Positions 3,133-4,012 of a stretch of 64,000 bases of DNA are shown in pieces. The stretch lies in sequence record MK327937.1, one strand, 5' to 3'. The stretch's first letter is position 1. The number at the start of each line of letters is the position of its first letter. Below the pieces are notes generated by a model. It was not told the DNA's origin and did not search any database. It worked only from the letters and a program-made list of their open reading frames with translations. Position numbers and translations under genes: made by a program. This stretch comes from Escherichia phage vB_EcoM_G10400.

Positions 3133-3813
3133 TTATTTTAATGTTACGAAAGAAGAATTACGTGTTTCACGAATTAGAACTGATCCGTCACGATTAATGT
3201 AGTAAATTAAGCTAAATAAAGTTTGGTGTGCCGACGCATGTTCAAAACTAGTTGGGTGAGATTTCCAATCTGGGGTTTCAGCAATCCATTGATAAATCCA
3301 CCAAGGAACAGTGCAGAATCCTGGATTTTTTCCAATCAGCTGAAGATTCGGACTAAAGTTTTCCGGAAGAGTAAATACAGACGGCTTTTCGGATTCAATA
3401 ATCTCAGCTACAGCCTGTTCGAATTTTTCTTCAACAAAAGGAGTATCTTCAATTAAAACAGTGGTATTTTCAGGAATTTTATCCGTTTCTACTACTTCAA
3501 TTTTAATGTCAGATTTAACCGGAGAATCAATCAGAAGTGCTGCCTCTGGATTGACTTCTTCATCGTCATATTTTAATCCGTCTGCGGCATCAGCAGCATC
3601 AATTAAGTCTTTAATAGATAACCCATCAGTCTCTGGCATAGGTTCACTAGCGAGCTTCTGGAGAGCTTCTTCAATATCATTAACGATATTATCAAAAGAT
3701 TTATTCTTTTTGACCTTTATACCAAACTGTTCAGCATATTCAGCTAATTTAGCTTTAGCTTCTTTATTATCATCAAGAGCCTTCAGCTCTGCAATATAAT
3801 CTTTATCTATCAT
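3133..3813 (-). CDS. inh: Inhibitor of prohead protease gp21 (Inh)
   Basis: 226 aa, position between hoc and segE as in T4; start ATG at 3811-3813 lies inside the duplicated 55-bp block so the true start context is ambiguous. Confidence 0.7.
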   Translation of the reverse strand: MIDKDYIAELKALDDNKEAKAKLAEYAEQFGIKVKKNKSFDNIVNDIEEALQKLASEPMPETDGLSIKDLIDAADAADGLKYDDEEVNPEAALLIDSPVKSDIKIEVVETDKIPENTTVLIEDTPFVEEKFEQAVAEIIESEKPSVFTLPENFSPNLQLIGKNPGFCTVPWWIYQWIAETPDWKSHPTSFEHASAHQTLFSLIYYINRDGSVLIRETRNSSFVTLK

Positions 3814-3835
3814 AATATTTCCTCAGTATAAATAT
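3781..3835. repeat. 55-bp direct repeat, copy 1 (flank of inserted adapter)
   Basis: Identical to 3958-4012 (cttcagctctgcaatataatctttatctatcataatatttcctcagtataaatat). Confidence 0.95.
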
Positions 3836-3901
3836 CTGTCTCTTATACACATCTCCGAGCCCACGAGACCGTACTAGATCTCGTATGCCGTCTTCTGCTT
3901 G
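3836..3901 (+). other. Illumina Nextera adapter read-through (mosaic end + read 2 adapter + 8-nt i7 index + P7), non-biological
   Basis: CTGTCTCTTATACACATCTCCGAGCCCACGAGAC (3836-3869), CGTACTAG (3870-3877), ATCTCGTATGCCGTCTTCTGCTTG (3878-3901) read directly in the sequence. Confidence 0.95.
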
Positions 3902-3957
3902 AAAAAAAAAAAAAAAATAAAAAAAAAAAAAAAAAAAAAAAAAAAAAAAAAAAAAAA
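3902..3957. repeat. Poly-A tract (56 nt with one T), typical of read-through past the end of a library fragment
   Basis: Homopolymer immediately following the P7 sequence; not plausible in this coding-dense phage region. Confidence 0.9.
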
Positions 3958-4012
3958 CTTCAGCTCTGCAATATAATCTTTATCTATCATAATATTTCCT
4001 CAGTATAAATAT
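3958..4012. repeat. 55-bp direct repeat, copy 2
   Basis: Identical to 3781-3835; followed by the genuine continuation toward segE. Confidence 0.95.
4004..4011 (+). promoter_or_regulatory. Possible late promoter core TATAAATA upstream of segE
   Basis: TATAAATA about 29 nt upstream of segE ATG; also present in repeat copy 1 at 3827-3834. Confidence 0.3.

What the first reader, a model, noticed from the sequence alone, without database searches (positions are those of the whole stretch)
3781..4012. Illumina Nextera adapter, index, P7, poly-A and duplicated 55-bp flank embedded between inh and segE
Positions 3836-3901 read CTGTCTCTTATACACATCTCCGAGCCCACGAGAC + CGTACTAG + ATCTCGTATGCCGTCTTCTGCTTG, i.e. 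the transposase mosaic end, Nextera read-2 adapter, an 8-nt i7 index (I believe CGTACTAG corresponds to N702) and the P7 flow-cell sequence. This is followed by a 56-nt poly-A tract and then an exact repeat of the preceding 55 bp. That is the signature of an adapter read-through read being incorporated into a consensus, not biology. The true genome most likely lacks 3836-4012 (177 bp). The duplicated block contains the inh start codon and a TATAAATA motif, so annotation of the inh start and segE promoter here is unreliable. Any submission of this sequence should be corrected.
Basis: partly seen in the sequence, partly recalled or inferred. Interest (0 to 1): 0.85.

Follow-up and report, generated by a model that had tools for sequence, protein, structure and literature searches.

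The report
Sequencing adapter left in phage assembly
A 177-base stretch between two genes of this T4-like phage is not phage DNA: it is an Illumina library adapter, instrument noise and a duplicated 55-base assembler overlap, and should be deleted.

Summary
Positions 3836-3901 are a perfect 66-nt Nextera read-through string: mosaic end, read-2 adapter, i7 index CGTACTAG (N702) and P7. Next comes a 56-nt A-run (A16-T-A39, 3902-3957). Then 3958-4012 repeats 3781-3835 exactly (55 nt).

It is an assembly artefact, not biology. More than 500 Tequatrovirus records and 10 independent assemblies encoding the identical SegE protein have a single copy of the flank and no adapter. Their inh-segE gap is 49 nt in nine of the ten (55 in one), against 226 (= 49 + 177) here.

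Three published sibling phages (G4507, KAW1E185, G4500) carry the same 55 + 66 + 56 anatomy at other genome positions, each with a different index. Their paper states: Nextera libraries, MiSeq, SPAdes --careful with k = 55, and T4-like contigs rearranged to match published phages.

A toy k = 55 de Bruijn graph reproduces the observed 262-nt junction with one mismatch. The arithmetic is 177 = 66 + (k+1) + k. The circular genome was broken at the 55-mer where an adapter tip branched off, and the contig ends were later joined untrimmed.

The inh and segE coding sequences are intact. Only the intergenic region is corrupted, and a 38-aa ghost ORF is created. Fix: delete 3836-4012. Biological interest is low; the value is data hygiene.

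The parts
3781..3835 (+). Copy 1 of the 55-nt flank. It is genuine phage sequence, contiguous with the inh body, and holds the inh start codon (3811-3813, - strand), its RBS and TATAAATA (3827-3834). In the graph model it is the branching 55-mer vertex where the adapter tip leaves the genome path.
   Evidence: exact 55-nt repeat; it is the only genomic branching vertex in the k = 55 graph; aligned to G4507.
3836..3869 (+). Tn5 mosaic end (19 nt) plus Nextera read-2 adapter (15 nt), in read-through orientation. Synthetic.
   Evidence: exact match, 0 expected by chance. The same string occurs in 44 unrelated phage records.
3870..3877 (+). i7 index CGTACTAG (N702).
   Evidence: labelled N702 in a published primer table (PMC5570097). 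Sibling records carry different 8-mers at this position.
3878..3901 (+). P7 flow-cell sequence (reverse complement of CAAGCAGAAGACGGCATACGAGAT). This is the physical end of a library molecule.
3902..3957 (+). 56-nt A-rich tail (A16-T-A39): base calls made past the end of the template. Its length is k+1 for k = 55, that is 55 A's to reach the A^55 vertex plus one pass of its self-loop.
   Evidence: tail is 56 nt in all four records, pure A56 in KAW1E185; the graph model predicts 56.
3958..4012 (+). Copy 2 of the 55-nt flank. It is contiguous with the genuine segE upstream region and represents the k-mer overlap at the start of the original contig. It holds a ghost inh start codon (3988-3990).
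3874..3990 (-). Ghost ORF created by the artefact: MIDKDYIAELK (duplicated Inh N-terminus) + poly-Phe (from poly-A) + adapter-coded KQKTAYEI.
3133..3813 (-). inh (minor head protein, inhibitor of prohead protease), 226 aa, intact.
   Evidence: phrog_1051 E = 2e-102; the identical protein occurs on many independent contigs.
4040..4657 (+). segE-type GIY-YIG homing endonuclease, 205 aa, intact.
   Evidence: PF19835 SegE_GIY-YIG, 37.6 bits against cut-off 25; phrog_314; the identical protein is indexed in 288 blocks of the collection.

Best explanation
This is an in-silico assembly artefact; no such DNA molecule exists in the phage. The proposed sequence of events is as follows.

1. A Nextera library of a circularly permuted T4-like phage was sequenced on a four-colour Illumina instrument without effective adapter trimming.
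2. Reads from fragments shorter than the read length ran from phage DNA into ME + read-2 adapter + i7 index + P7. Past the end of the template they were called mostly as A.
3. In a de Bruijn graph with k = 55, the adapter + poly-A k-mers are shared by all such reads. They form a well-covered 'tip' that survives tip clipping.
4. One surviving junction attached that tip to the genome circle at the 55-mer 3781-3835.
5. The circle was therefore output as a linear contig that starts and ends with that 55-mer (the usual k-mer overlap). It was extended by the tip (66 nt adapter + 55 A) and by one pass of the A^55 self-loop (+1 A).
6. Because T4-like genomes have no fixed ends, the contig was then rotated to be collinear with published phages by joining its end to its start, without trimming.
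7. That buried [55-mer][adapter 66][A-tail 56][55-mer] in the interior, between inh and segE.

Net excess is 66 + 56 + 55 = 177 bp. Deleting 3836-4012 (or equally 3781-3957) restores the true sequence.

What is shown: the anatomy; absence of the insert in all relatives; recurrence of the anatomy in siblings; the siblings' published pipeline; and the quantitative graph prediction.

What is inferred: that this window came from that same pipeline or an equivalent one; why the tip survived clipping; and the origin of the lone T at 3918.
For: - Exact 66-nt synthetic string, unique in the window, with 0 matches in 100 shuffles.
- All of the 40 best of 542 matching phage records span 1024 bp for the 1201-bp query, so each lacks exactly 177 bp. 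The base-level alignment to G4507 shows one clean copy.
- Ten independent assemblies (NCBI, ENA metagenomes, Logan) encode the identical SegE. The inh-segE gap is 49 nt in nine and 55 nt in one, against 226 here. Nine of them were aligned and show an identical single-copy intergenic sequence. None of the ten contains the mosaic end.
- Three sibling records carry the same 55 + 66 + 56 = 177 anatomy at unrelated loci with different indices: G4507 in gp5, KAW1E185 between rnh and gp34, G4500 inside a CDS.
[quoted passage not shown] It mentions no Illumina adapter trimming (PMC6563267).
- A toy k = 55 graph gives exactly two branching vertices (the 55-mer at 3781-3835 and A^55), a 176-nt tip and a 56-nt self-loop. 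Joining the resulting contig's ends reproduces window 3781-4042 with 1 mismatch in 262.
- The k-mer-length terminal redundancy of SPAdes pseudocircular phage contigs is a documented artefact (PMC12007190).
- Unrelated records (Bacillus phage Tomato, Pseudomonas phage SaPL) show the same class of structure: flank duplication + adapter + A-run.
Against: - Raw reads are not available, so coverage and clipping across the junctions could not be inspected.
- The window's own record was not found, so its actual pipeline is unknown. Searches tried: the phage collection, IMG/VR and an exact Hoc protein look-up.
- The pure graph model predicts A56, but the window has a T at 3918. The tails of G4507 and G4500 also contain non-A stretches while keeping the length at 56. 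This needs an extra assumption, such as post-assembly mismatch correction by --careful or junk base calls carried through bulge removal. That assumption was not tested.
Confidence: 0.97

Rival explanations
1. A single chimeric or read-through read was pasted into the consensus by an overlap or mapping-based assembler or by manual finishing. On this reading there is no de Bruijn-graph tip and no contig-end joining, and the 55-nt duplication is just the overlap the software happened to use.
For: Other deposited phages show adapter insertions with read-sized duplications instead: 229 nt in Bacillus phage Tomato and 260 nt in Pseudomonas phage SaPL. So more than one route to this class of artefact exists.
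Against: The duplication is exactly 55 and the tail exactly 56 in four different genomes. These equal k and k+1 of the pipeline published for three of them. The k = 55 graph model predicts the junction to within 1 base. A read-pasting route would give variable lengths, as it does in Tomato and SaPL.
Confidence: 0.025
2. A real insertion in the phage genome, either a Tn5-type transposon end or a retroelement-like insertion. The combination of poly-A tail and flanking direct repeat superficially resembles a target-site duplication.
For: Formally the layout is 'insert ending in poly-A flanked by direct repeats', and the first 19 nt are a Tn5-derived end.
Against: - Only one mosaic end is present, with no inverted partner and no 9-bp target duplication.
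- The mosaic end is followed by a sequencing-primer site, a sample index and the P7 flow-cell oligo, all purely synthetic.
- P7 is the physical end of a library molecule, so the A-run after it cannot be templated (own knowledge of Illumina chemistry).
- The same 177-bp package with different indices sits at different loci in sibling records, where it interrupts the essential gp5 gene.
- It is absent from all relatives.
Confidence: 0.002
3. A physical chimeric library molecule (phage fragment ligated to an adapter dimer and then to phage DNA again) that was faithfully sequenced and assembled.
For: Chimeric library molecules do occur (own knowledge). Paenibacillus phage Pd_22F shows two inverted mosaic ends about 160 nt apart.
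Against: - It would not yield an exact k-sized duplication of the flank.
- It would not yield a k+1-sized A-run.
- It would not recur with identical dimensions in four genomes.
- It would have to out-compete about 100% of normal reads in the consensus.
Confidence: 0.003

Closest known systems
Illumina Nextera adapter read-through contamination in deposited assemblies (what NCBI VecScreen / FCS-adaptor screens for)
   Same: An exact ME + read-2 adapter + i7 + P7 string followed by an A-run.
   Different: Here the adapter is internal and flanked by a duplication, so simple end-trimming would not remove it. Masking the adapter alone would still leave the 56-nt A-run and the 55-nt duplicate.
k-mer-length terminal redundancy of SPAdes contigs from circular or circularly permuted phage genomes
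   Same: The first and last k bases of the contig are identical and must be removed by hand. [quoted passage not shown] Here k = 55, as stated for the sibling phages.
   Different: The overlap is not terminal. It is hidden behind a 122-nt adapter + A tail at one contig end and was then moved to the interior by re-permutation. That is probably why it escaped trimming.
Same artefact in public records of sibling phages from Korf et al. 2019
   Same: Records: vB_EcoM_G4507 (MK327946 / RefSeq NC_054919, 76694-76759), vB_EcoM_KAW1E185 (MK373781 / NC_054922, 146295-146360) and vB_EcoM_G4500 (MK327945, 123962-124027). All have the identical 55 + 66 + 56 anatomy and 177-bp excess. All are Tequatrovirus, and G4507 is 99.2% identical to the window over 24 kb.
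   Different: The positions and indices differ (CGAGGCTG, ACCGATCG, CCACGGCC). In G4507 the artefact splits gp5 into two CDSs. In G4500 it is translated inside a deposited protein as 59 extra residues. In the window it falls in an intergenic region and no CDS is broken.

Membership tests
Illumina Nextera adapter read-through (synthetic contaminant) | 19-nt mosaic end CTGTCTCTTATACACATCT immediately followed by CCGAGCCCACGAGAC | tested here: met
   Exact at 3836-3869.
Illumina Nextera adapter read-through (synthetic contaminant) | 8-nt i7 index followed by ATCTCGTATGCCGTCTTCTGCTTG (P7) | tested here: met
   CGTACTAG at 3870-3877 and P7 at 3878-3901. The index is labelled N702 in PMC5570097.
Illumina Nextera adapter read-through (synthetic contaminant) | Non-templated homopolymer calls after the P7 end | tested here: met
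   56-nt A-rich run at 3902-3957. An A-run follows P7 in all six other records inspected. That A is the typical call on four-colour instruments rests on my own knowledge.
Illumina Nextera adapter read-through (synthetic contaminant) | Absent from independent assemblies of the same locus | tested here: met
Illumina Nextera adapter read-through (synthetic contaminant) | Raw reads show soft-clipping or a coverage collapse at the junctions | not testable with these tools
   No reads are available.
Untrimmed de Bruijn-graph k-mer overlap at a circular contig junction | Exact direct repeat whose length equals the assembler's k | tested here: met
   The repeat is exactly 55 nt. k = 55 is stated for the sibling phages; the window's own k is unknown.
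Untrimmed de Bruijn-graph k-mer overlap at a circular contig junction | A graph model with that k reproduces the junction | tested here: met
   1 mismatch in 262 nt.
Untrimmed de Bruijn-graph k-mer overlap at a circular contig junction | The junction coincides with the original contig ends | not testable with these tools
   This needs the original assembly output.
Tn5 / transposon insertion (considered, rejected) | Two inverted ends and a 9-bp target-site duplication | tested here: not met
   There is a single mosaic end, no inverted copy anywhere in the window, and a 55-nt rather than 9-bp duplication.

The most novel reading that the evidence does not exclude
No biological novelty survives. 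The most novel reading left is methodological. The fixed signature [k-mer][adapter 66][k+1 A-tail][k-mer] marks a systematic, machine-detectable failure mode: an adapter tip plus a hidden k-overlap, buried by re-permutation. It has already entered GenBank and RefSeq phage records, where it splits an essential gene (gp5 in NC_054919) and adds 59 adapter/poly-Phe residues to a deposited protein (QBO65890.1). A targeted screen could find and repair such records, which end-trimming and plain adapter masking would leave partly uncorrected.
Probability: 0.6. Interest if true: 0.2.

Novelty: not a real feature. Interest (0 to 1): 0.08.

Why it matters
It matters only for data quality.

- The 177 bp should be removed before the sequence is submitted or used.
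- If left in, it inflates the genome length.
- It corrupts the inh-segE intergenic region, which holds the inh RBS/5' region and a TATAAATA late-promoter-like motif upstream of segE.
- It creates a ghost ORF.
- It would produce spurious hits to every other adapter-contaminated record in similarity searches. For example, Streptococcus, Listeria and Bacillus phages appeared among the hits.

The same defect sits in three public sibling records, two of which also have RefSeq copies. There it breaks or pollutes protein annotations, so those records deserve correction too.

Tried and rejected
- **Finding the window's own record.** It is not in the INPHARED phage collection; the best match is G4507 at 99.2% over 24 kb. 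The junction 33-mer gives 0 hits in IMG/VR. The exact Hoc protein is not on record. The actual pipeline of this genome therefore remains inferred.
- **Real Tn5 insertion.** Rejected: one mosaic end only and no 9-bp duplication.
- **Retroelement-like reading (poly-A + 'TSD').** Rejected: the content is wholly synthetic and the dimensions equal k and k+1.
- **Literature support for poly-A after P7.** A search for the string P7+AAAAA found only one unrelated methods paper. That point rests on my own knowledge plus the seven instances seen here.
- **First sandbox scripts.** Two scripts failed because loci are stored several per file. They were redone.
- **Rfam and tRNA scans.** The Rfam gathering scan and the tRNA scan of the whole window found nothing. 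The Rfam negative was misleading for the two ORF-bearing introns.

Full report
**1. The observation**

- 3836-3854: the 19-nt Tn5 mosaic end.
- 3855-3869: the Nextera read-2 adapter.
- 3870-3877: CGTACTAG.
- 3878-3901: the P7 sequence, in read-through orientation.
- 3902-3957: 56 nt of A with a single T at 3918 (A16-T-A39).
- 3958-4012: an exact copy of 3781-3835 (55 nt). The preceding bases differ, so 55 is the true repeat length.

The index CGTACTAG is labelled N702 in a published primer table (PMC5570097).

The adapter pattern occurs once in the window with no mismatch, and no match appears in any of 100 dinucleotide-preserving shuffles even at 3 mismatches. It is the only adapter string and the only long homopolymer in the 64 kb. 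It is also the only perfect direct repeat of 35 nt or more.

**2. Context**

The window is a T4-like phage (Tequatrovirus). Around the site lie four genes.

- hoc, 1705-3123, minus strand.
- inh, 3133-3813, minus strand; phrog_1051, E = 2e-102.
- A SegE-type GIY-YIG homing endonuclease, 4040-4657, plus strand; PF19835, 37.6 bits against a cut-off of 25.
- The uvsW helicase, 4660-6168, plus strand.

Depositors of related records name the two flanking genes inh and segE (for example Aplg8).

Copy 1 of the repeat is contiguous with inh and holds its start codon and RBS. Copy 2 is contiguous with the native segE upstream region.

Both coding sequences are intact and have the same lengths as in relatives (226 and 205 aa). 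The artefact creates a 38-aa ghost ORF at 3874-3990 on the minus strand, MIDKDYIAELKFFFF...KQKTAYEI. It consists of the duplicated Inh N-terminus, poly-Phe from the A-run, and adapter-coded residues.

**3. Is it in the real genome?**

No evidence says so, and much says not.

- A megablast of 3300-4500 finds 542 phage records. All of the 40 best span 1024 bp of their record for the 1201-bp query, which is exactly 177 bp less.
- The alignment to the closest relative, vB_EcoM_G4507 (99.9% in the flanks), shows one clean copy of the 55-mer and nothing else.
- Ten independent assemblies from NCBI genomes, ENA metagenome assemblies and Logan assemblies of public runs encode exactly the same SegE protein. 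The inh-segE gap is 49 nt in nine of them and 55 nt in one, against 226 = 49 + 177 in the window.
- In the nine that were aligned, the intergenic sequence is identical to the window's single-copy reconstruction.
- None of the ten contains the mosaic end.

**4. Mechanism**

Searching the 66-nt adapter alone against 50,697 phage records returned 44 records. Among them are three siblings of the window: G4507 itself, KAW1E185 and G4500.

In each sibling the adapter carries a different index and sits at a different genome position. The anatomy, however, is identical: a 55-nt flank, the 66-nt adapter, a 56-nt A-rich tail and the same 55-nt flank again, for an excess of 177 bp.

The paper describing these phages (Korf et al. 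2019, PMC6563267) states the following.

- Nextera tagmentation libraries were used.
- Sequencing was on MiSeq v3, 600 cycles.
[quoted passage not shown] - No Illumina adapter trimming is mentioned.

This gives a complete account. In a k = 55 de Bruijn graph, the circular genome with one surviving adapter tip compacts into three edges.

- A loop edge that begins and ends with the branching 55-mer.
- A tip edge running from that 55-mer through the adapter to the A^55 vertex.
- The A^55 self-loop.

I tested this with a toy graph built from the corrected window treated as a circle, plus four read-through reads ending at 3835. The result was exactly two branching vertices (the 55-mer at 3781-3835 and A^55), a 176-nt tip (55 + 66 + 55) and a 56-nt self-loop. 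The path loop + tip + self-loop is 177 nt longer than the genome. Joining that contig's end to its start, as a re-permutation without trimming would do, reproduces window 3781-4042 with one mismatch in 262 nt (the T at 3918).

Hence 177 = 66 + (k+1) + k.

The k-mer-long terminal redundancy of SPAdes pseudocircular phage contigs is itself a documented artefact that authors remove by hand (PMC12007190). Here it was probably missed because it was hidden behind the 122-nt adapter + A tail.

Two steps in this account are inference, not shown.

- That the adapter tip survives SPAdes tip clipping because its k-mers are shared by all read-through reads and so have high coverage.
- That the non-A bases in some tails arise from the --careful mismatch-correction step or from junk base calls. 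The tails concerned are T3918 here and CCATCTCTGTCTCTT, an echo of the mosaic end, in G4507. The length stays at 56 in every case.

The statement that base calls beyond the P7 end are non-templated and come out mostly as A on four-colour instruments rests on my own knowledge. It agrees with the A-run after P7 in all seven instances inspected.

**5. Rivals**

- **A different software route** (read pasted in by an overlap assembler). This does occur in other records: Bacillus phage Tomato and Pseudomonas phage SaPL have 229- and 260-nt duplications around adapter + A-run. It does not explain the exact k / k+1 dimensions repeated in four genomes.
- **A real Tn5 insertion.** This fails its defining features: there is a single end and no 9-bp duplication.
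- **A retroelement-like reading** (poly-A plus flanking repeat). This is a superficial resemblance only, because the payload is entirely synthetic.
- **A physical chimeric library molecule.** This cannot contain a templated A-run after P7 and would not dominate the consensus.

**6. Comparison with the known, and novelty**

This is a known kind of contaminant (Illumina adapter) combined with a known assembler artefact (k-mer overlap), moved to the interior by genome re-permutation. It is not a biological feature.

The combination has practical consequences.

- Adapter masking alone would leave a 56-nt A-run and a 55-nt duplication.
- 177 is divisible by three, so the insert can be translated in frame. 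In G4500 the deposited protein QBO65890.1 reads through it and gains 59 residues (...YKGAWFERNINKHSHLNQ-FFFFFFFFFLLCGFLFFFFKQKTAYEMAVGLVGSEMCIRDR-YKGAWFERNINKHSHLNQ...).
- In RefSeq NC_054919, gp5 (baseplate hub subunit and tail lysozyme) is split into two CDSs around it.

**7. Limits**

- The raw reads and the window's own record could not be obtained. It is not in the phage collection, not in IMG/VR, and its Hoc protein is not on record.
- Attribution to the same pipeline rests on the identical dimensions and the close relationship to G4507 (99.2% over 24 kb).

**Verdict**

Delete 3836-4012. Biological interest is low.

Noticed in passing
NC_054919.1/MK327946.1 76694-76759 (L002); NC_054922.1/MK373781.1 146295-146360 (L003); MK327945.1 123962-124027 (L004): Three public sibling phage records, two of which also have RefSeq copies, carry the same 177-bp artefact (55-nt duplicate + adapter with another index + 56-nt tail). 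In G4507 it splits gp5 into two CDSs. In G4500 it is translated inside deposited protein QBO65890.1 as 59 extra residues.
   Followed up: yes
MT584805.1 107520-107585 (L005); MH973725.1 6641-6706 (L006); MZ092003.1 28000-28065 (L007); LR535910.1 240196-240262 (L008): Unrelated phage records also have internal Nextera adapters. Tomato has a 229-nt flank duplication and a DNA polymerase annotated as two CDSs. SaPL has a 260-nt duplication inside a CDS. Pd_22F has two inverted mosaic ends. In all, 44 of 50,697 phage records match the adapter.
   Followed up: partly
window 32456-33547: A 1,092-bp insertion in nrdB relative to G4507. It is a group I intron (RF00028, 35.7 bits, below the gathering score of 50) carrying a 269-aa HNH endonuclease ORF at 32591-33400 on the minus strand (PF13392). 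It resembles the ORF-bearing nrdB intron of some T-even phages (from memory: I-TevIII of RB3). Presence/absence differs between near-identical phages.
   Followed up: partly
window 37455-37685 (-): The td group I intron scores 42.5 bits against RF00028, below the gathering score. The default Rfam scan of the window therefore reported no RNA families at all, a false negative probably due to the inserted homing-endonuclease ORF.
   Followed up: partly
window 23956-24035, 41802-41881, 58484-58563, 62133-62212; also 15021-15074 and 30281-30334: Dispersed 54-80-nt repeat families. Read on the minus strand they show an A/T-rich upstream stretch, GTTTAC and a TAnnnT box at promoter spacing, so they look like T4 early promoters. 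This was not tested further.
   Followed up: no
window 3918; L002 686-700; L004 678-693: The post-P7 tails are always 56 nt but not always pure A. There is a lone T in the window. G4507 has CCATCTCTGTCTCTT, an echo of the mosaic end, and G4500 has scattered C bases. A constant length with variable content suggests substitution after graph construction, such as SPAdes --careful. This is unexplained without reads.
   Followed up: no
L009, L011, L012, L014, L015, L017, L018: Many phages with the identical Inh protein lack segE altogether, with inh directly followed by uvsW about 50 nt away. This is the expected presence/absence polymorphism of a free-standing homing endonuclease gene.
   Followed up: no
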